In this document: positions 40,426 to 63,865 of the stretch, piece after piece | Position numbering within the stretch: the first letter of the stretch is position 1 | Layout of the letters: every line of letters starts with the position of its first letter | From: a bacterium | GTDB taxonomy: Bacteria; Joyebacterota; Joyebacteria; Joyebacterales; Joyebacteraceae | Direction: 5' to 3' | Assembly: GCA_025782395.1 (NCBI GenBank) | Contig: JALGZD010000218.1 | Coordinates: 87,556-151,555, forward strand | Length of the DNA stretch: 64,000 bases | Position numbers and translations under genes: made by a program | Notes under the pieces: model-generated | The model's input: the letters and a program-made list of their open reading frames with translations, nothing else | Told to the model about the DNA's origin: nothing | Databases searched by the model: none

Positions 40426-40501
40426 AGAATTCGCGGATCAGACCTACGTGCAGCTTGCCGTCCTAGAATTCGCGGATCAGACCTACGTGCAGCTTGCCGT
40501 C
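40426..40501. repeat. tandem duplication (39-bp period) of the 3' end of the Omp85 gene
   Basis: AGAATTCGCGGATCAGACCTACGTGCAGCTTGCCGTC at 40426-40462 and 40465-40501. On the minus strand both copies encode DGKLHVGLIREF followed by a stop (TGA in the distal copy, TAG in the copy that terminates the gene). Confidence 0.85.
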
Positions 40502-42253: not shown

Positions 42254-45200
42254 TGAGCCTCATGTCGACCGTATGCCTCGCATCGGCATCCGGACGCCTT
42301 TCTCCCGAGTAGGTCACAGTTCCCGTCAGGAACCTGTTGAATCTGTAGTCACCGGAGAGCCTCCATTCAGCCGAAGCTCCGGCTTGCCGTCCATCCGCCA
42401 TGTAGTCCGGCAGCGCTCCGCCTGAGGCTTCCACTCCGGTGCGGGTCAAGCTTGCACTCACGGCACCTCGCCCCTTGAGGCGATAGATCAGCGTCGGCGT
42501 GATCTGCCAGACTCCAACGTCGACGCCGGAGACTGCGTCGCTCTCAACCCCATAGAGCGCAGTCAGCTTGATCTCGGCTCCACCGAGCTGTCTCTTGCCC
42601 ACCTCAGCGAGGACGCAGCGTTCATCCAGATCGTAGTCATTGAGGCTGCCGCCGGCCTCCCGCGCCCTCACGGCAGCGTCTACCTGAACACGATACGCAA
42701 TTCCACCCGGTGGGGAGACCTTGAGTTCAAGAGCCCCGCTCCGCTCCTTCAGTTCCTCCGGAGAGTTGGTGTAGACACGATCCAAGCGGTCACGCGTCTT
42801 GACAGCCAGGCGCGCCGAGAGAACTCCGCTCGTCGCATACCTCACGACGTGGCGTCCCGTCAGCTCCCCGGTGACCGTGTCCTCTCCTCTGAGCACAGAC
42901 GGATCCAGAAGGTAGAGGCGCGTCTTGTCACTGGTCGTCGTAGATTCCCTGAGCTTCAGGCTGCTCTCGAGCGACAGGCCCGTCAGAAAACGCCTCAACG
43001 CGCTGGGATCGGGCGTCCACCGCTCGTCCCGGCGACTGCTCCCGAAGCGAAGCGACCACCTGGTCCCGACAGACAGCTCCGTCACGGGCAGGAAGTTGCC
43101 GGTAGAGACGATGCGCGTCACTTCAACGCCGTCCTCCTCGGTCACGAACCGTTCCTTCTCCTCCACCTCGGTCGCCGTGACCGAGTACTTGAGCTCTCCC
43201 TTGAGGGCGCCGCTCATCGAGCGATGGCCGAGTGTGATGGCGGCGAGATCGTACCTGGTTCCGGACTCCGCGAGACCCTCGGCGACGTCGGTCCGCCTCC
43301 TCATAACATTGCCTTCGACCGTCAGCGCCTCCCAGCGCCTCAGCTGAGCACTCATCTCCTCTGTTCTGGTCGTGGACGATCCAGCCCAGGTCTTTCCATC
43401 CGAGGTCCGTTCAGTGTCCCGGTAGTTGGCCGCAACTCTGAATCCGATCTCGCCGCTCCCGGAGCTCTCTATCGACGCGCCGTGCTCGACGTAGCGTTCT
43501 CCGTCGTTGTCCTCGACACGGGAGTCATGCCTGTAGCTCAAGCCCGGCCGAACAGGCCCGAATGCGTAGCTCGCACCGGCGCGGTAGAACTCTCGTTCCC
43601 TCCGAAGCGAGGAGTCGGCCGAGACCCTGTGCCTCAAGTCAACGAAGCAGCCGCCGGCCCACACACTCCCGTTCTCGAGAGGGCTTGCCAACATGGAGAA
43701 CTCCATTCGATTCGACTCGAGCGCATCAGCGCGCTTGAGAAGGCCTCGAGACAGCTCAATGGCGCCCCCGCCCGGCAGAGAAAGGGCCAGTTCCCCTTCA
43801 CCCAGAACCTCTGCCTCAGGCAGGTCAAGACCCTTGAGCTCCCACGTCTCCTCGTAGCGGACATCTCTGAAGCGACCCACTCCCTCGAAGCTGCCCCCAA
43901 CGCGCCTGCCGACAAAGCCCACGGTGGCCTCAGCTCCGCCGAGGAAGCCGATCCGGACGCCGGGCGTGGAGGCGCGCAGCACGCTCGCGTTTCCCAGATT
44001 GTCGTCGTCATCCAGATCGGAGAAGGTGTTCCGGTCGAAACTTGAGACGGCGGCCTCGGCAGAAACGAATCCGTCCCTTCCGAATTCCCACCGGCCGTCG
44101 AGCGCCGCGACAGCTTTGTCCTGGGGCATGGGGAGTGCCTTGCCCAGACGGAACTCACCTTCATTCTCACCCACGTAGTAGTAGAAACCACCGAGGTAAT
44201 CGAAACCGTATCCGCCGCCGCTGCTCCGTTCAAAACTCAGATCATAGACCCCCGAATCGGCTCCCGCGTATTCGAAGTAACCCTCTTGAGTCAGCGTGTA
44301 GTCCCCGTTGCCGATCCCGAGCGAATCGATGCCGTCATCGTGAGCCAGCTCGATATCGTCTCCCGCCGCCTCGAGGACGGCTATCTGGCCTTCAGTGAGA
44401 GTGGCGGACGCAGCATCTCCGCGGTCGTCCGACTCGCGGAAGAACCCGGCTCCGATGACGAACTCCCCGTCACCCGCAGTGAAGGTCGCTCTTCCCCCAT
44501 AGATGTCTCTGTCGTAATCGCTGGTGGCGTACTCGTAGTCGATGACAATCTCGCTGTCGCTCGTAATGTGCCGGCGCTCAGTGAACTCGATCTCGCCCGC
44601 GGTGTACTCAATTGTGTAGTCGTTGTCCTTTCCCCGCCTGAGCCTCTCCCCGTCGAGCCAGATGCGCTCGCTTCCCGCCACCACCGTTATCCGGGTCGCA
44701 CCACCTCTGTCGGTAAGAAGATAGGGGCCCTGTTTCCCCGCAGTCCCGCGGAATGTCAGGCTTGCGTACTCGCCGTCGGCGCGCGCGCCGGCCAGCACGA
44801 TCGCCGCCCTGCCCACTTCTCCGCTGACCGTCACACCGGACAGATCCCGTCTCACATCCAGGAGGCTCCCTCCGTCTATCTCGAGGATGTAGTCACCCAT
44901 TGTGGCCGCCACGCGCTCGCCCTCGATCTCGACGAGCACCTTGTCGAGCGAACGAAGCTCCTCCGTGTCCCCCTCCGGAATGAGCGGCGTGTTCTGATCT
45001 GAGAGGTAGGCGGTGACGCTCACGTCGCGCGTTATCCTGCCTGAGATGTTGAGTCGCAGCGACTGCTCCAGCCTGAGGTCGCGGTCGGATCCCACCGTGA
45101 TTCCGAAGGTCTTGGCGCCGCCGACTTTGAGGGACGTCGATCTCGTCCCGGCGGCTGAGCCGCCCCCCGTTGCCGCGACGACCATCTCCCCCGGCCCGCC

Positions 45201-45653
45201 CCCATCGGCATCAGGCTGCCTGGCGGCATAGGCCGCCCCCGAGTCGGGTGTCCCTCCGGCCCGCAGGAATAGATCGGGTAGTTGTGCCGACGAGTCGATG
45301 ACCGACCGGCGGTAGACGCCGTGAGCCGGGATGGGATAGTAACGGTAGCGGAGGATGATCAGAGCACTCTCGGAGACAGCGACAGAAAGCGCCAGTTGCC
45401 CGGTCGCGTAATCGATGACGTAGTCGCGTCCGCGTTCTGCCGCCAGCCCGTCAATGAAAAGGGAATCGCTGCCGGCGAAGATAAGCGCGTCCGGAAGAGC
45501 GATACCAAGAACGGCCTCAGCCCCCGAGAACGCAAGTTCCCGTTCACCGCTTACGGCTGAAAGGTGACCGGCACGGACGCCCTGGGCCAACGTCACGAAA
45601 AGAACGAGAGACACAAGAAGCACTGCCGGCGCGGGGCGTCGGGTTCTATTCAT
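42240..45653 (-). CDS. very large secreted beta-rich protein (TamB/AsmA-like or TpsA-like partner of the downstream Omp85), unknown function
   Basis: 1137 aa. N-terminal signal or anchor MNRTRRPAPAVLLVSLVLFVTLAQG. D/G/S/T/Y-rich amphipathic strand pattern throughout. Ends ...RLNAFF. Confidence 0.5.
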   Translation of the reverse strand: MNRTRRPAPAVLLVSLVLFVTLAQGVRAGHLSAVSGERELAFSGAEAVLGIALPDALIFAGSDSLFIDGLAAERGRDYVIDYATGQLALSVAVSESALIILRYRYYPIPAHGVYRRSVIDSSAQLPDLFLRAGGTPDSGAAYAARQPDADGGGPGEMVVAATGGGSAAGTRSTSLKVGGAKTFGITVGSDRDLRLEQSLRLNISGRITRDVSVTAYLSDQNTPLIPEGDTEELRSLDKVLVEIEGERVAATMGDYILEIDGGSLLDVRRDLSGVTVSGEVGRAAIVLAGARADGEYASLTFRGTAGKQGPYLLTDRGGATRITVVAGSERIWLDGERLRRGKDNDYTIEYTAGEIEFTERRHITSDSEIVIDYEYATSDYDRDIYGGRATFTAGDGEFVIGAGFFRESDDRGDAASATLTEGQIAVLEAAGDDIELAHDDGIDSLGIGNGDYTLTQEGYFEYAGADSGVYDLSFERSSGGGYGFDYLGGFYYYVGENEGEFRLGKALPMPQDKAVAALDGRWEFGRDGFVSAEAAVSSFDRNTFSDLDDDDNLGNASVLRASTPGVRIGFLGGAEATVGFVGRRVGGSFEGVGRFRDVRYEETWELKGLDLPEAEVLGEGELALSLPGGGAIELSRGLLKRADALESNRMEFSMLASPLENGSVWAGGCFVDLRHRVSADSSLRREREFYRAGASYAFGPVRPGLSYRHDSRVEDNDGERYVEHGASIESSGSGEIGFRVAANYRDTERTSDGKTWAGSSTTRTEEMSAQLRRWEALTVEGNVMRRRTDVAEGLAESGTRYDLAAITLGHRSMSGALKGELKYSVTATEVEEKERFVTEEDGVEVTRIVSTGNFLPVTELSVGTRWSLRFGSSRRDERWTPDPSALRRFLTGLSLESSLKLRESTTTSDKTRLYLLDPSVLRGEDTVTGELTGRHVVRYATSGVLSARLAVKTRDRLDRVYTNSPEELKERSGALELKVSPPGGIAYRVQVDAAVRAREAGGSLNDYDLDERCVLAEVGKRQLGGAEIKLTALYGVESDAVSGVDVGVWQITPTLIYRLKGRGAVSASLTRTGVEASGGALPDYMADGRQAGASAEWRLSGDYRFNRFLTGTVTYSGERRPDADARHTVDMRLNAFF

Positions 45654-45656
45654 GGA

Positions 45657-46610
45657 TTACTCACAGGCGCCGTAGACAAGATCGACGATGATCAGGCGAC
45701 CGGCGACGCGGTCGAGCACGAGCAGGCGGCCATTTCCGTCGATCGCCAGGCCCACCGGCTCAACGGCCGGGGGTAGCCCGCTTCCCTCAATCGCGACCGC
45801 CGTTATCAGCCGATTCCTCGCGCTGAACGCCACAATGCGGCGTCCCTTGGGATCAGCGGCGATAAGATTGCCGTAGGTATCGAATGCGAGAGCGCACGGG
45901 TGGAAGCCGTCTCCCGGCAGCGCGACCTCACAGAGCTCAGAGCCGAATTCATCAAAGACGTGCACAACACCCGCCCCGGGATCAGAGACGGCAATCTGCC
46001 TGGATGGTCCCATGGCGACGTCACACGGCGACACCAACTCACCCACTCCACCTCCGAAGCCACCGAGCGGCTCGAGGGTCTCTGCAAACTGCGAGTAGAC
46101 GATCACGGCCTGCTTGTCCTCATCGACGATAAGAAGCTCGCCTCCACTCCCTATCGCAATGCCGATCGGGGTGCCGGTCTCATCTTCGTCGACGATCCGA
46201 TCAAGGTAGTTGCCGCGTTCGTCGAAACGCTCCACGCGCCTGTTCCCTTCATCGAGAACGTAGATGTAGAAGCCGGGATAGACGGCCAGATCCGTCGGGG
46301 TGTCGAACTGACCCTCATCCCAACCGTACCCTCCAAACTCCACGACAAGGTCGCCCGTTTCTGTGATGATCAGAACACGGTTATTACCCGAGTCCGCAAT
46401 CAGCATGTCTCCACGATGGTCGACGGCAAGCGATTGTGGAGAATCGAGACCCCACTCTCCGCTCCCCGGCACCTCACCGGCAAGTTCGAACGCAGTTATA
46501 GAGCGAGTATCGCCGACTGTCGCCAAGACGTCGACATCGGAGGAAGAGACGCTGCCGGCAGCGGCAAGGAGGCAACCGACGGCAAGCGCGCATGTCTTGA
46601 AACCTTGCAT
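45657..46610 (-). CDS. secreted NHL-repeat beta-propeller protein
   Basis: 317 aa. Signal peptide. Repeated ...SPQSLAVDHRGDMLIADSGNNRV... / ...PIGIAIGSGGELLIVD... / ...SPCDVAMGPSRQIAVSDPGAGVV... blades. Confidence 0.65.
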   Translation of the reverse strand: MQGFKTCALAVGCLLAAAGSVSSSDVDVLATVGDTRSITAFELAGEVPGSGEWGLDSPQSLAVDHRGDMLIADSGNNRVLIITETGDLVVEFGGYGWDEGQFDTPTDLAVYPGFYIYVLDEGNRRVERFDERGNYLDRIVDEDETGTPIGIAIGSGGELLIVDEDKQAVIVYSQFAETLEPLGGFGGGVGELVSPCDVAMGPSRQIAVSDPGAGVVHVFDEFGSELCEVALPGDGFHPCALAFDTYGNLIAADPKGRRIVAFSARNRLITAVAIEGSGLPPAVEPVGLAIDGNGRLLVLDRVAGRLIIVDLVYGACE

Positions 46611-46681: not shown

Positions 46682-47557
46682 CTAGAACGACATCTCGAGC
46701 GTCACCCGGCTGCCCGGAGATCCGTCATCGTCTACGACGGGCGCAACGAAGAGCCTGGCGTGTGGCTCGTTCTTGAGGCCCTGGTTGTGCCGACGCGCCA
46801 TCCAGGCGCTGTCGATGCTGCTTATCGCGCGATTCAGGATCGCGAGCCCGATCATGTGGAACGCGTTCTTGCGCGAAAGCGATGCGCTGTGGCGAAGATC
46901 CAGGTACTCGGAGAACCGTCCGCTACTCTCCCATTCCCAACCTGCGTCCCCAAAGTAGCCGTGTTGTGCGAAGTACTCACTCTGGGCATCCAGGTCATCT
47001 GGATAGAGACTGCGCGCCTCGCTCCTGATCCCCTCATTGTAGCTGTCCTCACCCTCGCTGCGGATGTAGTCGGCGATGTCCCGATAGTACTCACTCGTCG
47101 AGCCTCTGGGCACACCGGCGAAGATGGAGGCGAATTCCTTGTAGTCGTCCTCGCGCATACTCCCCTGGATCTCGAACGAAGCGTACCCAACCCAGATGGC
47201 GCCCTCGGCAGCCATGAAGGCCTTTCCACGACCATCGTTCCCCGTGTACATCTCCCCCCAGCCGGGTAAAACCATGGACATGAGCAGAGCGACCATCGGA
47301 TTCTTCATATCTGTGCCGGACTCTGACGCGGGAACTCTCCTGCCTCTCCCACTCGAGCTGAAATCAGCCGTGCTTCCGATCTCATTCAGGGAGAGCCCGT
47401 CCATCTCGAGTTCCACGCGCGCGCCGTACGCATGCGGAAGATCAGTGGTCACTACGGCCGACGCGGCTCCGGGTAGAAGATCAGCGGTGAGTACGGCCGA
47501 TGCGGCTCCGGGTATGAGCACGGCCATGGCCAAGAGAGCTGTAACGGTGCGATTCAT
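46682..47557 (-). CDS. secreted hypothetical protein, paralog A (shares PG.GE hydrophobic-helix motif and C-terminal region with 47569-48414)
   Basis: 291 aa. Signal peptide. Internal 13-aa tandem duplication IPGAASAVLTADL/LPGAASAVVTTDL. Motif LLMSMVLPGWGEMYTGNDGRGKAFMAAEGAIWVGYASFE. Confidence 0.5.
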   Translation of the reverse strand: MNRTVTALLAMAVLIPGAASAVLTADLLPGAASAVVTTDLPHAYGARVELEMDGLSLNEIGSTADFSSSGRGRRVPASESGTDMKNPMVALLMSMVLPGWGEMYTGNDGRGKAFMAAEGAIWVGYASFEIQGSMREDDYKEFASIFAGVPRGSTSEYYRDIADYIRSEGEDSYNEGIRSEARSLYPDDLDAQSEYFAQHGYFGDAGWEWESSGRFSEYLDLRHSASLSRKNAFHMIGLAILNRAISSIDSAWMARRHNQGLKNEPHARLFVAPVVDDDGSPGSRVTLEMSF

Positions 47558-47568
47558 GCGCCACCCCG

Positions 47569-48414
47569 TCAGTAGGTTGTCACGAAAGCCACACTGAGAC
47601 CGGCCGCACCGCAGGGCACCCCGAATTCGATACCCACTTGAGCGGCAGCCGCGTCATTCTCAGTCCCGTGTCCTCCGGCAAGAATGAACGAGTCCACGGC
47701 GCTCACGACGTGATTCAACAGCGCGGCCATCATGAGATACCGCGCCTGTCTGAGAGACGTGTTGCTGTCCTTCCGCATCCCCCAGTACTCGTTGCGGAGT
47801 TCCAGGGCCTCAGCGGTCGGATCGTTCGGAACGCCGTCACCGCCCCACCACGGCCAGTAGACGTCGTACTTGCCTATATCTTCGTAGAACTCCTGTGATC
47901 CGCAGTCGGCCAGCGGCCTGCATCCATTGGCGTAGTCGTGGGGGCAATCGAGGCAGTTCTCGTTGTAGAACTCCATGTAGCCCTCGAGATCCCAGTTGGC
48001 ATCTGCGAATGATTCATAGTCGCTGCGTTCTTCCAGACCCTGCTTGTCCAGGACATAGAACCCGCTCCACATGGCGATCTCGGCGAGAAGAAAAAGGTAA
48101 CCCCGCTTCTTGCCCTGCACGAGTTCGCCGCTACCGGGGACCGCGAGCGACATGAGAAGCATCTTTGAAGGATCGTGCCCCGACTCGGCGAAGGCCACGT
48201 CGGATCCACCGCTCGACAGGAACTCGGCTCTGGCATCGAGTGAGGAGATCAGCGCCAGATCCGGCCGTGCGGCCGTTCCGTTCGGCACGGCGGCCACACC
48301 GAAAGCCACTGGCGCCAGTGCCGCGATCACGGCGCACACGACAGCGAGCCTGATCACAGGTTCTGATGCAAATCTCACCACATCCACCAAACCAGCCTCC
48401 GTCGGAACCGACAC
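47569..48414 (-). CDS. secreted hypothetical protein, paralog B
   Basis: 281 aa. LLMSLAVPGSGELVQGKKRGYLFLLAEIAMWSGFYV aligns with paralog A. C-terminal ...LRQARYLMMAALLNHVVSAVDSFILAGGH aligns with A's ...LSRKNAFHMIGLAILNRAISSIDSAWMARRH. Confidence 0.5.
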   Translation of the reverse strand: MSVPTEAGLVDVVRFASEPVIRLAVVCAVIAALAPVAFGVAAVPNGTAARPDLALISSLDARAEFLSSGGSDVAFAESGHDPSKMLLMSLAVPGSGELVQGKKRGYLFLLAEIAMWSGFYVLDKQGLEERSDYESFADANWDLEGYMEFYNENCLDCPHDYANGCRPLADCGSQEFYEDIGKYDVYWPWWGGDGVPNDPTAEALELRNEYWGMRKDSNTSLRQARYLMMAALLNHVVSAVDSFILAGGHGTENDAAAAQVGIEFGVPCGAAGLSVAFVTTY

Positions 48415-48426: not shown

Positions 48427-51400
48427 CTAACGAACGACGGCGACCTTCATGATCCTCTGTTCGGTCCGCTCCCTCTGACGCATTTCCCCCATCGGCGTCG
48501 GAAGAACCACGCGCGCCTCAACACGCACCAGGTAGAGCCCACCGGCAACAGAAGAGATGTCCCAGACAAACTCGTTCACCGTCGGGACGCCATCCATCTC
48601 CACACTCTCGATGACCTGCCCCGTCACATCCAGCATCTCGATACTGAGCTCCGCCGCCTCCTCGAGATAGACACGAACCGTGAGATCCGAAGCCATCGCT
48701 GGATTCGGGTAGCAGTAGGTTCGCTCGAGAGCCATGAGCGTCTCTGTTTCATCGTACGCACCGAGAAGAAGCGAATCAGCGTAGCAGCCGGTGCCCGCGG
48801 CGTTTCCGGCCTCGGTCGACCAGACGATTGTTTCATTGGAGCACTCGTACGGCATCCGGTAGAAGAGGATCCGCCCGCTGCTACCCGCGACCAGAACATC
48901 CAGTTCTCCGTCGTTGTCCGCGTCCCCGATCCACGGCGTTCCGAGCGAGACATCAGATGAGAGAGGCCAGCCTTCCAGCATCTTCCCCGTCACACCGTCC
49001 CACGCGAACAGACTACCGCCCGGACCTCCGATGATCACATCTGTAATCCCGTCGGAGTTGATATCACCGACGAGTGGCGAGGACGGAGTGGAACGCAGGC
49101 TGTCGCCCGCGGAGAACCCCAGGGGCCAGTTCTCAACGGCGGTCCCGTTCATCCTGATGCCGGTCACGCTGCGTCTGCCGGTCGGAACAAGCACCTCAAG
49201 ATAGCCATCGCCATCGATATCTCCGAGAGAGACCCGCCCGATGATCTCGGCGCCCACGTCGACGGGCCAACCGGGAAGCTCGTTGCCGCCCGAGTCCCAT
49301 GCGTAGACGACCCCATCTGATCCTGCCGCTATTACCTCTGTACGACCGTCCGCAGCGTGGTCTATGTCACCTATCACGATGCCGGAGGTCTCCTGAAGCC
49401 ACGAGTCCACGATGACGGGCCATCCGGGAAGCGGAGTCCCATCCAAACGAATGGCCGCGATCCAACCTCTGTTGGTGGTCGAAGTCATCAGCTCGTCTGC
49501 CCCGTCTCCATCGAGATCGCCCGCGGCCAGCGTCACGTCGTCCAGAACAAGATGGCCAAACGAGTACGGCGACGAACCGAGATGATGGCCTGTCGCGTCT
49601 ACTATCGTGATGTACCCTCCACGAGACACGGCTGCTATTTCGAGTCCACCGCCGGCTTCGAACTGTGCTGCGAGAGGAGCTCCGCTGGCGGGGCCGCCTA
49701 TATTCAGGGGGAAGTTGTCGGACACGAGGTCGGCGATCCCGTCGCCGCGATCGTCCCGTCCGTACCAGGCGTACAGGAGACCGTTGTCGGACGCGACGAT
49801 CACCTCGGCCGCACCGTCGCCATCCAGATCCGCAAGGGCCGGCGCATGCGAGACGCCCCCGGAGGCCGCGGCGATGAATCCGAACGGTCCCGCGCAATCA
49901 GGCATCACCGGCGATCCGTCGGCGTGCCACGCGTAGACGGCTCCATCCGTTGTTGCCACCACGATCTCCATCTCGCCGTCACCATCGATATCCGCGACGC
50001 GCGGCGTCAACTCGTCGACCGCGTCCTCGAGCTCTATGGGCCATCCGTCCTTCCATCGATCGAAGTGTATCGATGCCGTCATGGTCGAGTCCGGATTCGA
50101 GATACCGCTGATCGAGAGGTAGCTTTTCCCGCCAAGATTGTCGTCTGTAGAAGGGAACGTGTCCCAGGAGAACGTCCCGTTGTTGTCGGCGAAGAACGGA
50201 TCGTATCTGCTGCCGGCCCAGTAGAAACTCGAGATGTTGCCAAGGTCCATGATCCCGTCGGCCTCCTCAACGGCGACGCCGAGTCGATGGCGATCGGCAT
50301 TGACCCGGTTGTACGGAAGCAGTCCGGGGGTCACGCGGGTGTCGTCCACGTGGTAGATGAGAAGCCCGGGGCCGGGGAGCAGAAAATCGTACTCATGATT
50401 GACGGGACATACGGGGTCATCGCAACCGGGATCGACCGGACCCAGCACCACACCTCTCTCCTGCTCGATGACAACGAGGTTGTCTTTGCCAATGTCATCC
50501 ATGCGGTTTTCGAGAAGGAAGTACTCAGTGCTCGTGATCGGGATCTTGAAGAGCCTGGCGCCACCGCTTCTGAGAACGGAAGCCTTGATGGTAATCTCCT
50601 CCATATCCTCAGCAATTATGACGGGATCAGTCCAGCCGAGATACTGGAGCGACCAGCCGCAGGGCGGAACCGGAATGAGACCGTATGCCCACCCCCACGG
50701 CGTGTTCATACCGATCCGTCCGCCGGAATCCATAAGTCCCCAGTAACCGATTGCGGGAAAGAAGTTGGAGGTATTGTACAGGTCGGACAGCCCGAGGACG
50801 TGACCTACTTCGTGGGCAAGCGTCCCGTTCAGAACGATGGTGAGCCCGTCCTGACTCGACGTCTCCGGCATAATCGCCGAGCCCCAGATCTCGTGCGCGC
50901 CATCGTTCACGAGGATCGGCTCGCCCAGCGCGATGTGCGCCGAGGGAAGATCGTACGGCGAGTTCAGATATACATCGCTCTGCCAGTCAGCACCTGCGTG
51001 GAAGACCACGTACCCGTCGTACGCAGCGAAGTCTATGCTGTCTGTCGTATCGGCGGCAGCGAAAGCGTCGCGTATGAACGATTCCACCTGGCTTACGTAC
51101 CAGACTTGTTCTTCCGAGTAGTCGTGGTAGTAACCCATGTCGTGCGGCAGCACGTATGCCTGATTGGATTCGGCCGGAACGACAGTGAACTCGAGATCGA
51201 GTGCGCCGTGTGAGACCGATCCGTAGTAGTTCTTGAGCGCCGTCATGTGAAGCTCGAAGTACTCCAGGTCGTGCGGCGGTCCATCGAACGTTGCCCCGTC
51301 CCACTCGGAGTAGTCGAAGGTCCCGTCTCCTGTGCTCAGCGGGTCGGAGTCGGGCTGGAACTGCACCCGGATGGCCAGAAGGCGCACGAGCGTCCGGTCG

Positions 51401-51621
51401 CCATTGCCACGCTCTCTCGCACGAGCCAGTTCTATCGCGCTCACGCGGGCCGGCTGACTCGGATAGTACCTGGACGTCACCGCCTGGAGCTCCTCCGGGG
51501 CGGCCTCGCCGCTCTTGCTGCAGATCAGCGTGGACGCCGCGCCGGCAGGGAACGCGGTCACAAGCAATATCACAACCAGAACAGCTGCACCCAATCTCAT
51601 TCCGTCCTCCACCGATCTCAT
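48427..51621 (-). CDS. secreted zinc metalloprotease (M6/immune-inhibitor-A-like HEXXH) with FG-GAP repeats and T9SS-type C-terminal sorting domain
   Basis: 1064 aa. LAHEVGHVLGLSDLY. At least six DxDGDG...VY.W FG-GAP-like repeats. C-terminal ~90 aa YPNPA...LSIEMLDVTGQVI...GGLYLVRVEA matches the Por-secretion C-terminal domain pattern. Confidence 0.65.
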   Translation of the reverse strand: MRSVEDGMRLGAAVLVVILLVTAFPAGAASTLICSKSGEAAPEELQAVTSRYYPSQPARVSAIELARARERGNGDRTLVRLLAIRVQFQPDSDPLSTGDGTFDYSEWDGATFDGPPHDLEYFELHMTALKNYYGSVSHGALDLEFTVVPAESNQAYVLPHDMGYYHDYSEEQVWYVSQVESFIRDAFAAADTTDSIDFAAYDGYVVFHAGADWQSDVYLNSPYDLPSAHIALGEPILVNDGAHEIWGSAIMPETSSQDGLTIVLNGTLAHEVGHVLGLSDLYNTSNFFPAIGYWGLMDSGGRIGMNTPWGWAYGLIPVPPCGWSLQYLGWTDPVIIAEDMEEITIKASVLRSGGARLFKIPITSTEYFLLENRMDDIGKDNLVVIEQERGVVLGPVDPGCDDPVCPVNHEYDFLLPGPGLLIYHVDDTRVTPGLLPYNRVNADRHRLGVAVEEADGIMDLGNISSFYWAGSRYDPFFADNNGTFSWDTFPSTDDNLGGKSYLSISGISNPDSTMTASIHFDRWKDGWPIELEDAVDELTPRVADIDGDGEMEIVVATTDGAVYAWHADGSPVMPDCAGPFGFIAAASGGVSHAPALADLDGDGAAEVIVASDNGLLYAWYGRDDRGDGIADLVSDNFPLNIGGPASGAPLAAQFEAGGGLEIAAVSRGGYITIVDATGHHLGSSPYSFGHLVLDDVTLAAGDLDGDGADELMTSTTNRGWIAAIRLDGTPLPGWPVIVDSWLQETSGIVIGDIDHAADGRTEVIAAGSDGVVYAWDSGGNELPGWPVDVGAEIIGRVSLGDIDGDGYLEVLVPTGRRSVTGIRMNGTAVENWPLGFSAGDSLRSTPSSPLVGDINSDGITDVIIGGPGGSLFAWDGVTGKMLEGWPLSSDVSLGTPWIGDADNDGELDVLVAGSSGRILFYRMPYECSNETIVWSTEAGNAAGTGCYADSLLLGAYDETETLMALERTYCYPNPAMASDLTVRVYLEEAAELSIEMLDVTGQVIESVEMDGVPTVNEFVWDISSVAGGLYLVRVEARVVLPTPMGEMRQRERTEQRIMKVAVVR

Positions 51622-51713: not shown

Positions 51714-52697
51714 TCAGAATGCGGCAGTCAGTGAGAACCTGAAGGGACGTTTGAGCCCTTCAGCCTGCGGCACATTCGCGATGTCGAATGCGAAGTCCCG
51801 ATACTTGAGCCCCATCCCGAAGGCGAAATCCTTCACTTCTCCGTCCTCATCGTACACGTAGCCCGCGCGTAGGCTCAGGAGGTCGAAGTACCGGTACTCC
51901 GCGCCAAGATTGAGAATGACGCCTGTGGACTGATCCATGATGTCCTCGATGATGACAAGCGACTTGTTGTAGTCACCGCACACCATCACCTTGTTCATCT
52001 CATCCGAGATGACCATGTAGGAAACACCGAGCTTCAGATTCCGGGGGAGAGGATCCGACTGTTCCTCGTCGATGTATGCGATTCTCGGTCCGACATGCTG
52101 AATCGCTCCTCCCAGCCTCAGTCTGCCGTCCCACAATCTGTAGAGCGCGCCGATGTCCGCCGCGAACGTCGTCCCCGCTCCCTTCTGCTGATCCTGCGTG
52201 TACTGAGCGGGAGCGAGATTGACGTAGACGAATTTGAGATTGAGGCCCAGCGCCAGATTATCGGTCAGGAGAGTGCCATAGGCCACCGACGGTATGACCT
52301 CGTAGGAACTGAATGTGCCGATTGGGTCCGGGCTGTCCGGATCCGTGGCTATCTGCTCACCGTACGTGAGATAGACAAGAGACGCCCCGACAGTACCCAG
52401 GCCCTCGATGCGCTGCGCGTACGCCGCGTACTCATAATAGACATCGTCCCAGTCCGGGACCAGCTGCGTGTGCATGAGCGTGACGTTGAACTCAGCTCCG
52501 ATGAATGCGAGTCCGGCAGGATTCCACGAGACGGCACTTGCATCCTCCGCCACGGCTGCAAAGCAATCGCCCATACCGGCCGGCCTGGCGCCCGGCTGGA
52601 TGTAAAGCGACTGAGCTCCGCCGATCGACACCTGCGCGTGTGCCGGTGCCACGATCGCAACTGCCAGCAGCGTCAGAAGCATTCCTGTTCTCAGCAT
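51714..52697 (-). CDS. FadL-fold outer-membrane beta-barrel, PorV/PorQ/PorP-like
   Basis: 327 aa. Signal peptide. GARPAGMGDCFAAVAEDASAVSWNPAGLAF N-terminal motif typical of FadL/PorV-like barrels. Ends ...SLTAAF. Confidence 0.45.
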   Translation of the reverse strand: MLRTGMLLTLLAVAIVAPAHAQVSIGGAQSLYIQPGARPAGMGDCFAAVAEDASAVSWNPAGLAFIGAEFNVTLMHTQLVPDWDDVYYEYAAYAQRIEGLGTVGASLVYLTYGEQIATDPDSPDPIGTFSSYEVIPSVAYGTLLTDNLALGLNLKFVYVNLAPAQYTQDQQKGAGTTFAADIGALYRLWDGRLRLGGAIQHVGPRIAYIDEEQSDPLPRNLKLGVSYMVISDEMNKVMVCGDYNKSLVIIEDIMDQSTGVILNLGAEYRYFDLLSLRAGYVYDEDGEVKDFAFGMGLKYRDFAFDIANVPQAEGLKRPFRFSLTAAF

Positions 52698-52730: not shown

Positions 52731-55700
52731 TCATCTCATGATGACGGCTCTGCCGATCGCCTCGGCCTTGTCGCCACGGTAGCTCCTGGAGACGGCGGAA
52801 ACTCTGTACAGATAAACTCCGTTGGCCGGCTCGTCTCCTACGTGATCCCGACCGTCCCAGAAAACCTGATTGGCTCCTGCGGTCGCATCGATGTCGTCCA
52901 GCGTGACGATTCTCCTGCCTCCCACCGTGAAGATATCGATCCTGACGTCCGCGTCCACCGGCAGCTGGAAGAGGATATAAGTACCCTCTCTCCCCGCGTC
53001 AGGGAACGGATTCGGGTGGTTGGCAACATTCCGTATCTCGAAATCGGCAGCCGAGATCACTTCGAACCAGAGGTTCTCGCTCTGCCTGTTGCCGACGTTG
53101 TCGCTCGCCGAGAGCGAGAGCGAATGGCCGCCCAGTGGCATTGATGGAAGATCGTACTCGAACGAACCCCCGCGAAAATCCCCAAGGTCGCAGATGAAAT
53201 CACCGGTCAGATCGGTCGAATCGCTGCTGTCGATCTGAAGGATGATGCCACGTCCACCGCCCTCGGTCGCCAGGTTGATTCCGCTCTCGTCAAAGAGCGA
53301 GATCGCCATGGTTGCACTCGGCAGAACCGAGGCCCCACCACCCTCGAATTCGAGAGCGATATCCGGGCCGGTGTGGTCCGAGACTTCCACCGAATCCATG
53401 AGTGCCACGTTCTCCAACGAGAAAGCCCCATCAGTACCGCTGCCGTAGGCGTACACCCGGACTCTCCCGTATGGACCCTCGCGCGCCGCAGTCGAAACGA
53501 CGAACTCCGTAGACAGATCACCGTCCAAGACCGCGACCGGTCCCCGGAAGATCGTCTCTCCCGGAAGCGAGTAGTCAACGTGATATCCGCTCGACTCCTG
53601 TGTGTACCCGGTCGTGTCTGCGCTCTCCGAGACACGAATGAGCGCGACCCCGTCCAGACTCTCGATAGCACCCGTGCCCTCACCTTCGACTTCGATCCTC
53701 GAGCCACGCTTCATCGGGTCGAGGTCGTCGGAGACGAGAACACCGCCTCCTACGGGCGCTGCCAAGGTCAGGCCCGGATCGCCCAGCACAACGAACTTCG
53801 AGTTGTTCCACCATGCAGACAGGCTGCCCCACATTGAAAACGCCGTCTGGAACGCACACCCTACGTCCATCACAGCTTCAGGACTTGTCTGCTGGTATCC
53901 AAAGATGGCCCTGAGGAAGTCGCGGTTGAAATTGGCATTCTGGTTGGCCCCTGAGTCCCGCGTGCTTCCGATGGAGATGATGGAACCTCCTATCGCGGAT
54001 TTCGCCAGGGCCTCACCCAGGGAATCGACGGTCTCATGGTCGAACTTATTCAGCCTGCACGAAGCGGCGAAGAAAAGAGGAAGAGTATCGATGTTGTTCA
54101 GAAGTGAGACGTCATCAAACAGTAAGACGGACTCATGAGCAATGACGATCTCACTGCCGTGGCCCGTGTAGTTCAGAAGGAGGGCGCCCCCGTTCCAGGC
54201 GTCGATGACGTCGGCCCGGGCGGCAGGCTTCATCGTGCCCACTTTCTCATATTCCATGAGATAAATCTTGCGCCGATCCAGAGGGAAGGGCAGCACATCA
54301 GTGGCTATCTGCTCCGTCTGCACGGTGTGCAACCACTCGGTGGAGCCGTCCACCGTGTACTCATCGTCGCCCAGGAGAATGGCTGTGTTCTTCCAGAGGC
54401 CCGGCTGCTCTGCCAGCTCGTAGCGCTCAATCTTGTCCACCATCGTCGCCGCTTCCGTGACCGTGTCAACGGACAGGCGTCCGAGAGCGATGTTCATGTC
54501 ACACCGGACAGTGTCCTCGAAGCAAACGTACCAGACGTCGGCCGGCCAGTACCAGGGCGAGAATGATGTGGCGAATCGGAGCATGTGGTGCACAGGAATG
54601 TACGTCGGGAGACTTGATGAAGCGTACCCGCGGGAATCGGACGTCCCGTCGCCGATCAGGACTGCGTGTGTGGGCGGTACAGCCTCATTCTCCCAGGTGA
54701 ACTTGAAGTAGTCCCTGATGGCGGCCGCATCTACGATGCCCCACGAGAATTCGTCGTAGATGTCGGACACCTTCACCAGGCGGACGTCGAAGCTGCCTCC
54801 ACTCGCGCTCTCCCTGATGTTCTTCAATCGGACGGCATCATCGTAGAACATGTCGTGAACAACCATGAGGTAGTCGTGCCCGCCCGGTGTTCTCAGGTCC
54901 CCGAACTCATCCAGCTCCAGCGACGGCGTCAAGTACGCTGCGGATGAGATCGCCGCATACGATGCCGTATCTGCGGCATCGTCCTGAAACACAATAGCGT
55001 TGTCCCTGCCTGCGGTCCCATGTGAAACGCCCGGTATCGTCCGAACGGTGAACTTGTTCATGATCTTGTAGACCATGACATCCGGATTCTGAAATCCGGT
55101 GACCGTGTGTTCCACAATCCCTGTCCTGCCGGAGCTTCCGAAGAAGACGCGATCGTTGGTCGCAATCAGGTTTCTCCAGTACGTGATATCGAACCAGTCA
55201 ATGTATATCGACTCGTCGGTCGCCCCGGGGATATCTCGCGGAAGGTAGATCTCAAGCGTGTTGTAGCCTTCATTGATGGAGAGGCTGTCGGCTTCGAATC
55301 TCATGTCCCCATAGGCATTCCCGTAGGCCTCGTACGCCTCTTCTCCGTTCAGAGAGAAGATGACATGGTGATCCGGATTGCAGGGGAAAGAGCTGTTGCC
55401 GTAGACGCTCGCCGCGAGACATCCGAGCGAGTCGGTCCTGACGTGGCTCAACTGCTCGTGAAAGTAGCGACGACTCTCGCTCTTCGTCATCTCGTGCCAG
55501 AACCAGTTGTCGGACCGCCCCTGACGCGTGAGGATGTTGCGCTCGAAATGCGTACGCACTCTGTGGGCATCAGCCAGGATCGGCGTTGGTGAATTCTGCA
55601 GGTCGTCTTCTTCCATACGGAGAGGATCGGCACTGAATCCCGACGGCGCACCCTGGTTCTCCCACGTCAGCCAGTAGACATTCTCGTTCGCGAAGCGGTT

Positions 55701-56762
55701 CTCGTGGTAGGGCTCCTCCGGATTCTCAATGTCGAATTCGGTCGACCACCCGTCGGCGCCCAGCGCATAGAAGACCACGCAGTCACCGGGATCGAATGAG
55801 CTATCACTCTCACCCGGCACACGTATCGTACACTCTTCCATCCAGTCCGGACGTGGTTCGAGCACGGAGGGTGGCATCGACAACCCGCCCCCGCTGAACA
55901 CGCGAAAGGTCGCAGGATCGATCGCGCCGGCAGCCACACCGAGGGAGACCAGCGCGTCATAGGGAACGCTGTAGAATCCCCTGTCCGAGACCGACATCTT
56001 CACCCAGTTGGACGACGTATAGAAGTAATCCCCGTCACGACGACCAGAAACGTCCAGGCGGTTGCCGACCCGGCGCCAAGCCCTACCGCTCTCGTAGTTC
56101 AGGAGACTGACCCGGAACATATTCTCTCGCCGCGCCGCATCGCGGAGTGGACCGCCGTCCTCGCTCACGGCGCCTCGCTTGAGTCCACTGAATGTCAGCC
56201 TCGCTTGAATCCTCTCCTGCGAGATCAGAGTGTTGCGGGCGGGATCGAACTGAACAGGATGGAACTCCAGAACGACAACGCGCTGGGTCGCGAACCACTT
56301 GGGCCCTTCAAAACTTGCGGCCGTCGGGGGCCAGAGACCGGATATCTCATAGACACTCCCTTCCTGCCGCTCGTACCGGCTGAGTTCACCCGCCGGCACC
56401 CGCACAGAGGATGGAGCCGGAGCCACTCGGACCCCTTCCGTCGACTCTGTTCCGCCCGTTGTCAGCTGGAGCTCGACCGTCTCACAGTCGGGAACGGCAA
56501 GCATGACTCGGATGCATGGGAGATCGGGACCACCAGGAACCGCCAGGAACTGCGAGTGAGGCAGAGCGATCGAGACGTAGTCGCGATCATCTATCGTCAG
56601 AGCCGTGAGAATCGGCTCCCCGGGTTCGCACACGAGCGTGATGCCCGTTTCGTTTGACTCCACGAGCGTGACCGAGGCCGGAACCGCCGCTACGGGACTT
56701 GCGAAAGCTACAATCCAGATCGCCGCCGGCACAGCTGCCGCGAGAGAGCTTCGGTGACTCAC
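52731..56762 (-). CDS. clan CD C25 (gingipain-like) cysteine peptidase with T9SS-type/FlgD-Ig-like C-terminal domain
   Basis: 1343 aa. Signal peptide. Catalytic dyad context LLNYTGHGSE (His) and FFAASCRLNKF (Cys). C-terminus NPFPDAG...VRIDIFTVGGRRIVTL...WDGRDHVGDEPANGVYLYRV. Confidence 0.65.
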   Translation of the reverse strand: MSHRSSLAAAVPAAIWIVAFASPVAAVPASVTLVESNETGITLVCEPGEPILTALTIDDRDYVSIALPHSQFLAVPGGPDLPCIRVMLAVPDCETVELQLTTGGTESTEGVRVAPAPSSVRVPAGELSRYERQEGSVYEISGLWPPTAASFEGPKWFATQRVVVLEFHPVQFDPARNTLISQERIQARLTFSGLKRGAVSEDGGPLRDAARRENMFRVSLLNYESGRAWRRVGNRLDVSGRRDGDYFYTSSNWVKMSVSDRGFYSVPYDALVSLGVAAGAIDPATFRVFSGGGLSMPPSVLEPRPDWMEECTIRVPGESDSSFDPGDCVVFYALGADGWSTEFDIENPEEPYHENRFANENVYWLTWENQGAPSGFSADPLRMEEDDLQNSPTPILADAHRVRTHFERNILTRQGRSDNWFWHEMTKSESRRYFHEQLSHVRTDSLGCLAASVYGNSSFPCNPDHHVIFSLNGEEAYEAYGNAYGDMRFEADSLSINEGYNTLEIYLPRDIPGATDESIYIDWFDITYWRNLIATNDRVFFGSSGRTGIVEHTVTGFQNPDVMVYKIMNKFTVRTIPGVSHGTAGRDNAIVFQDDAADTASYAAISSAAYLTPSLELDEFGDLRTPGGHDYLMVVHDMFYDDAVRLKNIRESASGGSFDVRLVKVSDIYDEFSWGIVDAAAIRDYFKFTWENEAVPPTHAVLIGDGTSDSRGYASSSLPTYIPVHHMLRFATSFSPWYWPADVWYVCFEDTVRCDMNIALGRLSVDTVTEAATMVDKIERYELAEQPGLWKNTAILLGDDEYTVDGSTEWLHTVQTEQIATDVLPFPLDRRKIYLMEYEKVGTMKPAARADVIDAWNGGALLLNYTGHGSEIVIAHESVLLFDDVSLLNNIDTLPLFFAASCRLNKFDHETVDSLGEALAKSAIGGSIISIGSTRDSGANQNANFNRDFLRAIFGYQQTSPEAVMDVGCAFQTAFSMWGSLSAWWNNSKFVVLGDPGLTLAAPVGGGVLVSDDLDPMKRGSRIEVEGEGTGAIESLDGVALIRVSESADTTGYTQESSGYHVDYSLPGETIFRGPVAVLDGDLSTEFVVSTAAREGPYGRVRVYAYGSGTDGAFSLENVALMDSVEVSDHTGPDIALEFEGGGASVLPSATMAISLFDESGINLATEGGGRGIILQIDSSDSTDLTGDFICDLGDFRGGSFEYDLPSMPLGGHSLSLSASDNVGNRQSENLWFEVISAADFEIRNVANHPNPFPDAGREGTYILFQLPVDADVRIDIFTVGGRRIVTLDDIDATAGANQVFWDGRDHVGDEPANGVYLYRVSAVSRSYRGDKAEAIGRAVIMR

Positions 56763-57229
56763 CAGGAGTCCTCCTCGCCTGCAGCGCCGGTGAATGCAGA
56801 ACTCACATCGCTTCGATTGATGACGCCGACGACCCGGCTGTCTTCGTCGACCACGGGCAGGAGAACGTGCTTGTTGTTGAGCATTACAGCAGCGACCTTC
56901 ATCATGGACGTTCCGGGACCGACCGTGTGTGGATCGGCATGCATAATATCCTCTGCAAGGAAAAGCGTCGGTTCGATCTCCGACATCGTCTGCGCTTCGA
57001 TCGCTCCGAAATCGTCGAGAAAAGCGAGATCATCGAACATCGAAAGATAGTGCGGAAGAAATATGTTTATGAGTTCTTCATGTGTGACGACACCGAGCAG
57101 ACGGCCGTCCTCGTCGACGACCGGGACGCCGGTGATTCTATGGCATCTCAGAAGCTCCGCAATCTCAGCGATGTTCGCCGACCGTCCGACAGTGACGACG
57201 TCCGTAGTCATGTAGTCGCGCGCCTTCAT
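56759..57229 (-). CDS. CBS-domain pair protein
   Basis: 156 aa. Two CBS motifs (DYMTTDVVTVGRSANIAEIAELL...ITGVPVVDEDGRLLGVVT; ...HVLLPVVDEDSRVVGVINRSDV). Confidence 0.7.
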   Translation of the reverse strand: MKARDYMTTDVVTVGRSANIAEIAELLRCHRITGVPVVDEDGRLLGVVTHEELINIFLPHYLSMFDDLAFLDDFGAIEAQTMSEIEPTLFLAEDIMHADPHTVGPGTSMMKVAAVMLNNKHVLLPVVDEDSRVVGVINRSDVSSAFTGAAGEEDSW

Positions 57230-63676: not shown

Positions 63677-63745
63677 GGGGATCCCTCCTGGCCTGTGTGG
63701 TGTTCCCGATTGAGTGGCGTGCCCGTCAACCGGTCTCTCTCTGCT

Positions 63746-63809
63746 GCTCTGCCTGATCCGCCTGGCAGTATACCCCGCTCCTCTGCCTGATCCGCCTGGC
63801 AGTATACCC
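63746..63809. repeat. two tandem 30-bp direct repeats (34-bp period) CTCTGCCTGATCCGCCTGGCAGTATACCCC
   Basis: Exact copies at 63746-63775 and 63780-63809. Minus-strand reading of each contains TATACT. Located between the rRNA terminator and the lipoprotein gene. Confidence 0.8.
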
Positions 63810-63825
63810 CACCCGCGGACAAAGA

Positions 63826-63860: not shown

Positions 63861-63865
63861 ACGTT

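What the first reader, a model, noticed from the sequence alone, without database searches (positions are those of the whole stretch)
48427..51621. Large HEXXH metalloprotease (M6-like) with FG-GAP repeats and a T9SS-type C-terminal sorting domain
HEVGHVLGL is an M6/immune-inhibitor-A-like zincin motif. It is combined with at least six calcium-binding FG-GAP-like propeller repeats and a canonical Por-secretion C-terminal domain.

This gene and the C25 peptidase make two large T9SS-type proteases within 8 kb. Together they suggest a proteolytic, protein-scavenging lifestyle consistent with the hut and kor catabolic genes elsewhere in the window.
Basis: partly seen in the sequence, partly recalled or inferred. 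Interest (0 to 1): 0.5.

Follow-up and report, generated by a model that had tools for sequence, protein, structure and literature searches.

The report
T9SS-operon M6 metalloprotease with propeller
The gene does encode an intact InhA-type (M6) zinc protease fused to an eight-bladed propeller and a type IX secretion tail, but it sits inside a conserved secretion-machinery gene cluster (PorU sortase, PorV shuttle, a SprA-like protein), so it looks like a secretion-linked surface protease rather than one of two free protein-scavenging enzymes.

Summary

The "two scavenging proteases" reading is not. The C25 protein is the T9SS sortase PorU, and PorV lies between the two genes. Downstream come two small membrane proteins, an NHL protein, a remote SprA-like protein and an Omp85 protein.

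PorV is directly upstream in 71 of 72 related loci (Eisenbacteria, Zixibacteria, KSB1, Ignavibacteria and others). PorU is upstream in 26 of 27 loci with an active motif.

A large sister clade, which includes NCBIfam NF052323 ("M6-like inactivated"), lost the zinc ligands but keeps the PorV linkage. All 18 such loci carry an extra HEXXH zincin gene next door; none of 25 active loci does.

Best reading: a conserved T9SS-linked surface protease and scaffold. No experimental data exist. I rate it a new variant of a known kind, of moderate interest.

The parts
48427..51621 (-). Whole ORF of the M6-like / FG-GAP / CTD protein (1064 aa as the longest ORF). The probable real start is the ATG at 51600 (1057 aa).
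51532..51600 (-). Probable Sec signal peptide (MRLGAAVLVVILLVTAFPAGAAS).
   Evidence: Read from the sequence; helix 7-21 and low pLDDT in the model. No signal-peptide predictor was available.
51397..51531 (-). N-terminal segment aa 31-75, a possible pro-segment. It contains Cys34, which is conserved in 4 of the 5 close Eisenbacteria homologs examined.
   Evidence: The pro-segment role is inferred, not tested.
50047..51396 (-). InhA-type M6 catalytic domain plus a VEG-like domain (aa 76-525).
50782..50814 (-). Zinc-binding motif HEVGHVLGLSD (His270, Glu271, His274, Gly277, Asp280).
50731..50733 (-). Met297 of the putative Met-turn (WGLMDSG).
   Evidence: Met is 98% conserved in the active clade and 97% in the inactive clade.
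48832..50046 (-). Eight-bladed FG-GAP beta-propeller (aa 526-930). Seven blades carry DxDxDG-type Ca-binding-like loops.
48430..48729 (-). T9SS type-A C-terminal sorting domain (aa 965-1064).
51714..52697 (-). PorV-family outer-membrane barrel, directly upstream of the M6-like gene.
   Evidence: NF033709 237.9 bits, Pfam PorV 5.2e-26. Directly upstream in 71 of 72 related loci.
52731..56762 (-). PorU, the T9SS C-terminal signal peptidase/sortase (a C25 peptidase with its own C-terminal domain).
   Evidence: NF033707 535.8 bits, above 420. Peptidase_C25 1.6e-75. CTD hit.
47569..48414 (-). Small membrane protein 'h281', a conserved downstream partner.
   Evidence: A homolog lies downstream in 43 of 44 loci. 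Only a weak DUF6677 match.
46682..47557 (-). Small membrane protein 'h291', a paralog of h281.
   Evidence: Only a weak DUF5683 match.
45657..46610 (-). NHL-repeat protein, part of the conserved cluster in the active clade.
42240..45653 (-). 1137-aa protein with a remote, sub-threshold resemblance to the T9SS translocon SprA/Sov.
   Evidence: TIGR04189 29.4 bits. 12 of 15 family members hit the same model, best E=2.8e-10. No PDB hit.
40463..42253 (-). Omp85/BamA-family protein that closes the conserved cluster.

Best explanation
The gene encodes a catalytically competent zinc metalloendopeptidase of the immune-inhibitor-A (M6, 'thuringilysin') fold. It is fused to an eight-bladed FG-GAP propeller and a type-A T9SS C-terminal domain.

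Proposed route. The protein is exported by Sec through its signal peptide. Its C-terminal domain is then recognised by PorV and the T9SS, and it ends up on the cell surface next to PorV and PorU.

Proposed chemistry. His270, His274 and Asp280 bind zinc, Glu271 acts as the general base, and Met297 forms the Met-turn.

Proposed role. The gene is a fixed member of a T9SS outer-membrane gene block: PorU, PorV, this gene, two small membrane proteins, an NHL protein, a SprA-like protein and an Omp85 protein. It is therefore most likely a T9SS-associated surface protease and scaffold. It would process cargo or machinery at the attachment step, for example by removing pro-domains. The propeller and the non-catalytic conserved surface would serve as a docking platform. 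General protein scavenging is the less likely role.

What is shown: the domain identities, the intact active-site motif, the synteny and the family history. What is inferred: localisation, substrates and the link to the attachment step.
For: Fold and motif.
- The family profile hits InhA in the PDB at E=4.3e-9.
- HEXXHXXGXXD and the Met-turn are conserved.

Secretion.
- Pfam and TIGRFAM C-terminal-domain hits reach threshold.
- This protein and PorU are the only two C-terminal-domain proteins in the window.

Synteny.
- PorV lies directly upstream on the same strand in 71 of 72 loci.
- An h281 or h291 homolog lies downstream in 43 of 44 loci.
- PorU lies within 10 kb upstream in 26 of 27 loci with an active motif.
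- The order PorU-PorV-M6-h281-h291-NHL-h1137-Omp85 recurs in Eisenbacteria, Zixibacteria and MAGs labelled Ignavibacteria.
- h1137 is remotely SprA-like in 12 of 15 members.

Family history.
- A clade of 42 of 241 representatives lost the zinc ligands but keeps its length, propeller, C-terminal domain and PorV adjacency.
- Motifs outside the zinc site (EYFLxENR, YDxxLPGxGxLIWHxD, EEADG) are at least as conserved in that clade.
- All 18 loci with an inactive M6 domain carry an inserted gene of about 1000 aa with a conserved THEFTHM zincin motif. None of the 25 active loci does. This suggests the block needs one metalloprotease activity.

C-terminal domain.
- The family's C-terminal-domain profile ranks the domains of PorU (8.8e-8) and PorZ (1.6e-5) above cargo domains (7.6e-4 or weaker) in the PDB. 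PorZ's C-terminal domain is not cleaved by PorU (PMC8545088); that PorU also keeps its own is from my own knowledge.
Against: - No experimental data exist for any member, and no paper was found.
- Synteny can also reflect co-regulation of a machine with its dominant cargo.
- The 18-versus-25 correlation probably reflects one evolutionary event, because the inactive clade is monophyletic in a rough NJ tree.
- The loci are the 80 most similar of 389 or more hits, found through a single peptide pattern, so they are not an unbiased sample.
- The ranking of C-terminal domains rests on weak E-values. The window's own PorU and M6 C-terminal domains align only at E=0.013.
- The full-length model shows no special similarity to PorZ beyond generic propellers.
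- The window protein does not hit the PorZ model.
- Pfam M6 and TIGR03296 scores are below their curated cutoffs.
Confidence: 0.55

Rival explanations
1. It is an ordinary T9SS cargo: a surface or secreted InhA-like protease used for protein scavenging or environmental proteolysis. Its position next to porU-porV would reflect only co-expression with the machine that exports it.
For: The zinc site is intact and strongly conserved in the active clade. InhA-type enzymes are secreted broad-spectrum proteases (own knowledge; PDB 4yu5 hit). A type-A C-terminal domain is the normal cargo signal. hutU and an amidohydrolase in the window show amino-acid catabolism.
Against: Cargo genes are normally scattered and variable. 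This one keeps the same length, architecture and position after PorV across several phyla, in 71 of 72 loci. A large clade is a pseudo-protease in the same position.
Confidence: 0.27
2. It is a PorZ-like structural subunit of the attachment complex. The propeller and an uncleaved C-terminal domain would dock on a PorV/PorQ-type barrel and deliver the anchoring glycolipid to PorU. Proteolysis would be dispensable or vestigial.
For: PorZ consists of propellers plus a C-terminal domain that PorU does not cleave (PMC8545088). The family's C-terminal-domain profile hits the PorU and PorZ domains best. Three of 34 members hit the NCBIfam PorZ model at up to 4.2e-9. A large catalytically dead clade persists with its synteny. 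Non-catalytic motifs are conserved in both clades.
Confidence: 0.12
3. It is a surface adhesin or matrix protein whose propeller binds polysaccharide or calcium (Bap1-like), with a protease domain that remodels the matrix. It would have no relation to T9SS function beyond being exported by it.
Against: Designed and BamB-type eight-bladed propellers score equally well or better. The Bap1 similarity therefore reflects the generic fold and does not explain the PorV/PorU/SprA-like synteny.
Confidence: 0.06

Closest known systems
Immune inhibitor A (InhA1/InhA2, Bacillus; MEROPS family M6; PDB 4yu5/4yu6)
   Different: Pfam PF05547 and TIGR03296 score below their curated cutoffs. After the VEG-like domain this protein carries an eight-bladed FG-GAP propeller and a T9SS C-terminal domain. 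It comes from a Gram-negative FCB-group bacterium and is exported by the T9SS. It is fixed in a porU-porV gene cluster.
NCBIfam NF052323, 'T9SS-dependent M6-like inactivated metalloprotease' (curated together with NF052324 PorU2 and NF052325 PorV2)
   Same: The overall architecture and length match, and this is the best NCBIfam hit (390.7 bits). A PorV-family gene lies directly upstream of a true member, P0081, which scores 617 bits.
   Different: The window protein scores below the 600-bit cutoff and has an intact zinc site. Its neighbours match canonical PorU (535.8 bits, above 420) and the PorV family, not PorU2 (152 bits, below 450) or PorV2 (46 bits, below 325). It belongs to the active clade; its closest inactive relative is 43% identical over the N-terminal domain.
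PorZ (P. gingivalis T9SS attachment-complex subunit; PDB 5m11)
   Same: The beta-propeller plus C-terminal T9SS-type beta-sandwich layout is shared, as is the association with PorU and PorV-type proteins. The family's C-terminal-domain profile matches the PorZ C-terminal domain at E=1.6e-5.
   Different: PorZ has two seven-bladed propellers and no protease domain (PMC8545088). The window protein does not hit NF052228. PorZ is not among the top structural matches. Only the resemblance in role is a hypothesis.
T9SS-secreted metzincins of Bacteroidota (for example mirolysin and karilysin of Tannerella forsythia)
   Different: They belong to a different metzincin family, are small single-domain enzymes, and to my knowledge (not tested here) are species-specific virulence cargo that is not syntenic with porU or porV.

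Membership tests
MEROPS M6 / immune inhibitor A (thuringilysin) metallopeptidases | Extended zinc-binding motif HEXXHXXGXXD (two His and one Asp as ligands, Glu as general base) | tested here: met
   HEVGHVLGLSD at aa 270-280. The motif is conserved in 114 of the first 120 homologs and in 187 of 241 in an alignment.
MEROPS M6 / immune inhibitor A (thuringilysin) metallopeptidases | Met-turn methionine downstream of the motif (metzincin hallmark) | tested here: inconclusive
   Met297 in 'WGLMDSG' is 97-98% conserved.
MEROPS M6 / immune inhibitor A (thuringilysin) metallopeptidases | Catalytic-domain fold (with following VEG-like domain) like InhA | tested here: met
MEROPS M6 / immune inhibitor A (thuringilysin) metallopeptidases | Score above the curated cutoffs of the family models (Pfam PF05547, TIGR03296) | tested here: not met
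   PF05547 scores 20.1 bits against GA 22. TIGR03296 scores 88.8 bits against 110.8. The protein is a divergent relative, significant by E-value (5.8e-25) but below the trusted cutoffs.
MEROPS M6 / immune inhibitor A (thuringilysin) metallopeptidases | Zinc-dependent endopeptidase activity | not testable with these tools
   This needs recombinant enzyme.
T9SS type-A CTD proteins (cargo or CTD-bearing components) | C-terminal beta-sandwich sorting domain matching TIGR04183 / PF18962 | tested here: met
   PF18962 scores 28.3 bits (GA 27) and TIGR04183 scores 23.1 bits (cutoff 23), both marginal. The family C-terminal-domain profile hits the PorU, PorZ and F. johnsoniae cargo domains in the PDB. 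The model shows a beta-sandwich at aa 969-1062.
T9SS type-A CTD proteins (cargo or CTD-bearing components) | N-terminal Sec signal peptide | tested here: inconclusive
   A hydrophobic segment followed by AGA-AS was seen by eye. No predictor was available.
T9SS type-A CTD proteins (cargo or CTD-bearing components) | Host encodes T9SS machinery | tested here: met
   PorU and PorV are adjacent. A remote SprA-like gene lies in the same block.
NCBIfam NF052323 T9SS-dependent M6-like inactivated metalloprotease | Score of at least 600 bits against the equivalog model | tested here: not met
   The window protein scores 390.7 bits. The true member P0081 scores 617.1 bits.
NCBIfam NF052323 T9SS-dependent M6-like inactivated metalloprotease | Loss of the zinc-binding and catalytic residues | tested here: not met
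   The window has an intact HEXXHXXGXXD. P0081 has VILYGFQLGLPA at the same columns.
NCBIfam NF052323 T9SS-dependent M6-like inactivated metalloprotease | Encoded next to a PorV-type gene | tested here: met
   PorV is at 51714..52697, directly upstream. The same holds for P0081, P0095 and P0106.
PorZ (T9SS attachment-complex subunit, NF052228) | Match to the PorZ family model; two seven-bladed propellers followed by a C-terminal domain | tested here: not met
   The window protein gives no NF052228 hit at E<=1. It has one eight-bladed FG-GAP propeller. Only C-terminal-domain-level similarity to 5m11 was found.
PorZ (T9SS attachment-complex subunit, NF052228) | C-terminal domain retained (not cleaved by PorU); protein held on a PorV/PorQ-type barrel | not testable with these tools
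   This needs proteomics or co-purification.

The most novel reading that the evidence does not exclude
In Eisenbacteria, Zixibacteria and allied non-Bacteroidota FCB lineages, this M6-propeller-CTD protein would be an integral and so far unrecognised subunit of the T9SS attachment/sorting complex. It would be held on PorV through an uncleaved C-terminal domain. It would take the scaffold place that PorZ/PorQ occupy in Porphyromonas and add a dedicated maturation protease for PorU and/or cargo. In the clade where its own zinc site died, the neighbouring outer-membrane zincin would have taken over the proteolytic step.
Probability: 0.3. Interest if true: 0.7.

Novelty: new variant of a known kind. 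Interest (0 to 1): 0.5.

Why it matters
Nearly all mechanistic knowledge of the T9SS comes from two Bacteroidota models. This study shows that across several other FCB-group phyla, one large protein family is locked into the porU-porV neighbourhood. The family has at least 2,662 clusters at 50% identity with E<=1e-30.

The family exists in an active-protease form and a pseudo-protease form, and the pseudo-protease form is always accompanied by a replacement zincin. That pattern suggests a proteolytic step coupled to T9SS sorting that has not been described. It also offers a natural active-versus-dead comparison with which to test the idea.

For annotation, the 'C25 peptidase plus M6 peptidase' pair should not be read as evidence of a proteolytic lifestyle.

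Tried and rejected
- A single-sequence search of the PDB gave nothing useful. Only the family profile reached InhA.
- Literature searches found no paper on this family. The terms covered T9SS with immune inhibitor A or FG-GAP, T9SS outside Bacteroidota, and PorU2, PorV2 or 'M6-like inactivated'. The Mizgalska 2021 paper on PorU latency is not held.
- The promoter and terminator scan of 40-58 kb did not exceed the shuffled expectation.
- Rfam found only a 5S rRNA in the window.
- Pairwise BLASTP of the window's M6 and PorU C-terminal domains gave only generic similarity (E=0.013). I therefore dropped the idea that the two share a specially related C-terminal domain.
- The 1137-aa downstream protein gave no PDB hit, either as a single sequence or as a profile.
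- The extra zincin of the inactive clade has no homolog in the window.
- An exact-sequence lookup of P0001 found no record.
- I considered a lipoprotein reading of Cys34 and rejected it. 'TLIC' does not fit a lipobox, which needs a small residue at position -1.
Full report
**1. The observation**

The minus strand carries an uninterrupted ORF at 48427..51621 (1064 aa). A GGAGGA Shine-Dalgarno sequence lies 5 nt before a second ATG at 51600. The 100%-identical database protein P0001 is 1057 aa long, which fits that start. The real gene is therefore probably 48427..51600.

A conserved 'WGLMDSG' follows, with Met297 as the likely Met-turn.

Family-model scores:

| Model | Score | Curated cutoff |
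|---|---|---|
| Pfam FG-GAP_3 | E=1.5e-20, six stretches | passed |
| Pfam FG-GAP | E=2.6e-16 | passed |
| Pfam Por_Secre_tail | 28.3 bits | 27 |
| TIGR04183 | 23.1 bits | 23 |
| Pfam Peptidase_M6 | 20.1 bits | 22 (not reached) |
| TIGR03296 | 88.8 bits, E=5.8e-25 | 110.8 (not reached) |

By eye there are eight FG-GAP-like repeats. Seven have DxDxDG-type loops, and six 'GWP/NWP/NFP' linkers separate the blades.

**2. Is the N-terminal part really an M6 protease?**

A profile of 34 diverse full-length homologs (A1) hits B. anthracis InhA (4yu5) in the PDB at E=4.3e-9, over profile positions 32-312.

The full-length AlphaFold2 model is confident (pLDDT 86.2, pTM 0.83). Structure searches with it were swamped by propellers. 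I therefore modelled aa 29-530 separately (pLDDT 78.8, pTM 0.85).

The domain reading is therefore confirmed: signal peptide, short possible pro-segment, InhA-type catalytic plus VEG-like domain, eight-bladed FG-GAP propeller, and type-A C-terminal domain.

**3. The neighbourhood changes the interpretation**

The 'C25 peptidase' at 52731..56762 is the T9SS sortase PorU (NF033707, 535.8 bits against a cutoff of 420). It carries a C25 propeptide-like N-terminus and its own C-terminal domain. Between it and the M6-like gene lies a PorV-family barrel at 51714..52697 (NF033709, 237.9 bits; Pfam PorV 5.2e-26).

The genes downstream, all on the same strand, are separated by gaps of -14 to 71 nt:

- Two paralogous small membrane proteins, 47569..48414 and 46682..47557. 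They give only weak DUF6677 and DUF5683 hits.
- An NHL-repeat protein, 45657..46610.
- A 1137-aa protein, 42240..45653. It and 11 of its 14 aligned homologs give weak hits to the SprA/Sov translocon model TIGR04189 (best E=2.8e-10).
- An Omp85-family protein, 40463..42253.

This protein and PorU are the only two proteins in the window with a C-terminal sorting domain.

**4. Is the arrangement conserved?**

The protein has 204 relatives at E<=1e-10 in the word-indexed search. Sources name them only 'M6 family metalloprotease-like', 'T9SS type A sorting domain-containing' or 'FG-GAP-like repeat-containing'. The closest named records are Candidatus Eisenbacteria MAGs, so the window is almost certainly from that phylum.

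A scan of one genome per species returned 80 loci. They come from Eisenbacteria, Zixibacteria, KSB1, Ignavibacteria (including a MAG labelled Ignavibacterium album), Melioribacteraceae, Calditrichaceae, LCP-89 and a few MAGs labelled Bacteroidota or Cytophagia.

I ran tblastn with the window's neighbouring proteins against these loci:

| Feature | Loci with the feature |
|---|---|
| PorV directly upstream, same strand | 71 of 72 with enough upstream DNA |
| h281 or h291 homolog downstream | 43 of 44 |
| PorU within 10 kb upstream, active M6 motif | 26 of 27 |
| PorU within 10 kb upstream, inactive M6 motif | 6 of 20 |

The full order PorU-PorV-M6-h281-h291-NHL-h1137-Omp85 recurs in Eisenbacteria, Zixibacteria and MAGs labelled Ignavibacteria.

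Caveat: these are the 80 most similar of at least 389 confirmed hits, and they were found through one conserved peptide (EEADG...). They are not an unbiased sample.

**5. Active and dead forms**

The best NCBIfam hit is NF052323, 'T9SS-dependent M6-like inactivated metalloprotease' (390.7 bits, below the 600 cutoff). NCBI curates this model together with 'PorU2' (NF052324) and 'PorV2' (NF052325).

An exhaustive HMMER search with the N-terminal-domain profile found 2,662 representatives (50%-identity clusters) at E<=1e-30. The top 150 are almost all 1000-1150 aa.

In a MAFFT alignment of 241 full-length members, 195 keep His, Glu, His and Asp, and 46 do not. A rough NJ tree with Fitch parsimony puts 42 of the 46 in one clade. 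That clade contains P0081, a true NF052323 member at 617 bits. The window protein is in the active clade.

Three inactive members were checked individually, and each still sits directly after a PorV gene.

Across the loci, the zinc site and the gene content downstream correlate perfectly:

- In all 25 loci with an active motif, the small membrane-protein genes come right after the M6 gene.
- All 18 loci with an inactive motif have an extra gene of about 1000 aa inserted there. That gene carries a conserved intact zincin motif, (I/V)THEFTHM. Its product shows a Peptidase_MA_2-like N-terminus, PD40/TolB-like propeller repeats and a probable C-terminal barrel.

This is probably one evolutionary event that was then retained. 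It still suggests that the gene block needs one metalloprotease activity. In the window that activity would come from the M6 domain itself.

Several motifs outside the zinc site are as conserved, or more so, in the dead clade: PPH, HAG, EYFLxENR, YDxxLPGxGxLIWHxD and EEADG. This points to an additional, non-catalytic function of the N-terminal domain.

**6. Relation to PorZ**

PorZ of P. gingivalis consists of two seven-bladed propellers plus a C-terminal domain that PorU does not cleave. It forms the attachment complex with PorU, PorV and PorQ (PMC8545088).

Evidence for a link:

- A profile of this family's C-terminal domain ranks the domains of PorU (6za2, E=8.8e-8) and PorZ (5m11, E=1.6e-5) above cargo domains (8glj at 7.6e-4; RgpB at 0.021; mirolase at 0.07).
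- Three of 34 family members hit the PorZ NCBIfam model.

Evidence against a link:

- The window protein has no PorZ-model hit.
- PorZ is not among the top 60 structural matches.
- The window's own PorU and M6 C-terminal domains align only at E=0.013.

The protein is therefore not a PorZ homolog. A PorZ-like docking role remains a hypothesis.

**7. Most likely mechanism**

Shown:

- An InhA-fold zincin with a complete active-site motif.
- An eight-bladed Ca-loop propeller.
- A type-A C-terminal domain.
- Fixed synteny with PorV, PorU and a SprA-like gene.
- The family history of active and dead forms.

Inferred:

- Sec export.
- Recognition of the C-terminal domain by PorV and the T9SS.
- Residence on the cell surface near PorV and PorU.
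- A proteolytic step coupled to sorting or attachment, for example removal of pro-domains from PorU or from cargo.

P. gingivalis PorU is itself made in a latent form; this comes from my own knowledge of Mizgalska et al. 2021, which is not held in the library. The window's PorU has a Propeptide_C25-like N-terminus.

I put about 0.55 on 'T9SS-linked protease and scaffold', about 0.27 on 'ordinary nutritional cargo protease', about 0.12 on 'PorZ-like scaffold with dispensable catalysis', and the remainder on an adhesin or matrix role.

**8. Novelty and verdict**

The building blocks are all known: M6 peptidase, FG-GAP propeller and T9SS C-terminal domain. NCBI curators have already named the inactivated sister family and its PorU2 and PorV2 partners.

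I could not find the following described in any paper in the library:

- The active clade locked to canonical porU-porV across several phyla.
- The embedding in a block that includes a SprA-like gene.
- The active-versus-dead split with a compensating zincin.

I rate this a new variant of a known kind, with moderate interest (0.5). It is useful to T9SS specialists and for annotation, but it rests entirely on comparative inference.

Noticed in passing
window 42240..45653 (-) and 40463..42253 (-): A 1137-aa protein has no Pfam or PDB match, but it and 11 of its 14 aligned homologs give weak hits to the SprA/Sov translocon model (best E=2.8e-10). In the active-clade loci where downstream DNA was available it is followed by an Omp85-family gene, whose start overlaps it by 14 nt in the window. 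It could be a short, divergent T9SS translocon or a partner of the Omp85 protein.
   Followed up: partly
window 47569..48414 (-) and 46682..47557 (-): These are two paralogous small membrane proteins of about 285 aa. They carry a 'PGxGE' motif and end in an aromatic residue, and they give only sub-threshold DUF6677 and DUF5683 hits. A homolog lies downstream of the M6-like gene in 43 of 44 loci. Their function is unknown.
   Followed up: partly
L080 12958..16080; L081 13257..16352; L082 4180..7137: In every locus examined where the M6 domain is inactivated (18 of 18), an extra gene of about 1000 aa sits between the M6-like gene and the small membrane-protein genes. Its product has a conserved THEFTHM zincin motif, PD40/TolB-like propeller repeats and a probable C-terminal barrel (an Omp85 Pfam hit in L082). 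The window contains no homolog.
   Followed up: partly
window 56759..57229 (-) and 57277..57735 (-): Two small genes fill the apparent gap between accA and porU. One encodes a CBS-pair protein whose stop overlaps the PorU GTG start. The other encodes a PTS EIIA-Ntr/PtsN-like protein ('GVAFPHAKS'). I identified both by eye and did not run them against family models.
   Followed up: no
window 63864..63980 (-): A 5S rRNA gene (Rfam RF00001, 95.6 bits). The 295-aa ORF 63023..63910 overlaps it and is therefore at least partly spurious.
   Followed up: no
window 51520..51522 (Cys34 of the M6-like protein): A cysteine in the N-terminal segment ('TLICSK') is conserved in 4 of the 5 close Eisenbacteria homologs examined, but not in the more distant relatives examined. 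It could be a cysteine-switch residue of a pro-segment, as in mirolysin or the MMPs. This is untested.
   Followed up: no
L008-L012, L015, L024, L028, L035, L038 and other Zixibacteria-type loci: In these loci about 2 kb of extra sequence separates PorU from PorV. In Eisenbacteria the two genes are 37-370 bp apart. I did not examine what the insert contains.
   Followed up: no
The 858-aa ORF at 26490..29066 has no Pfam match.
   Followed up: no
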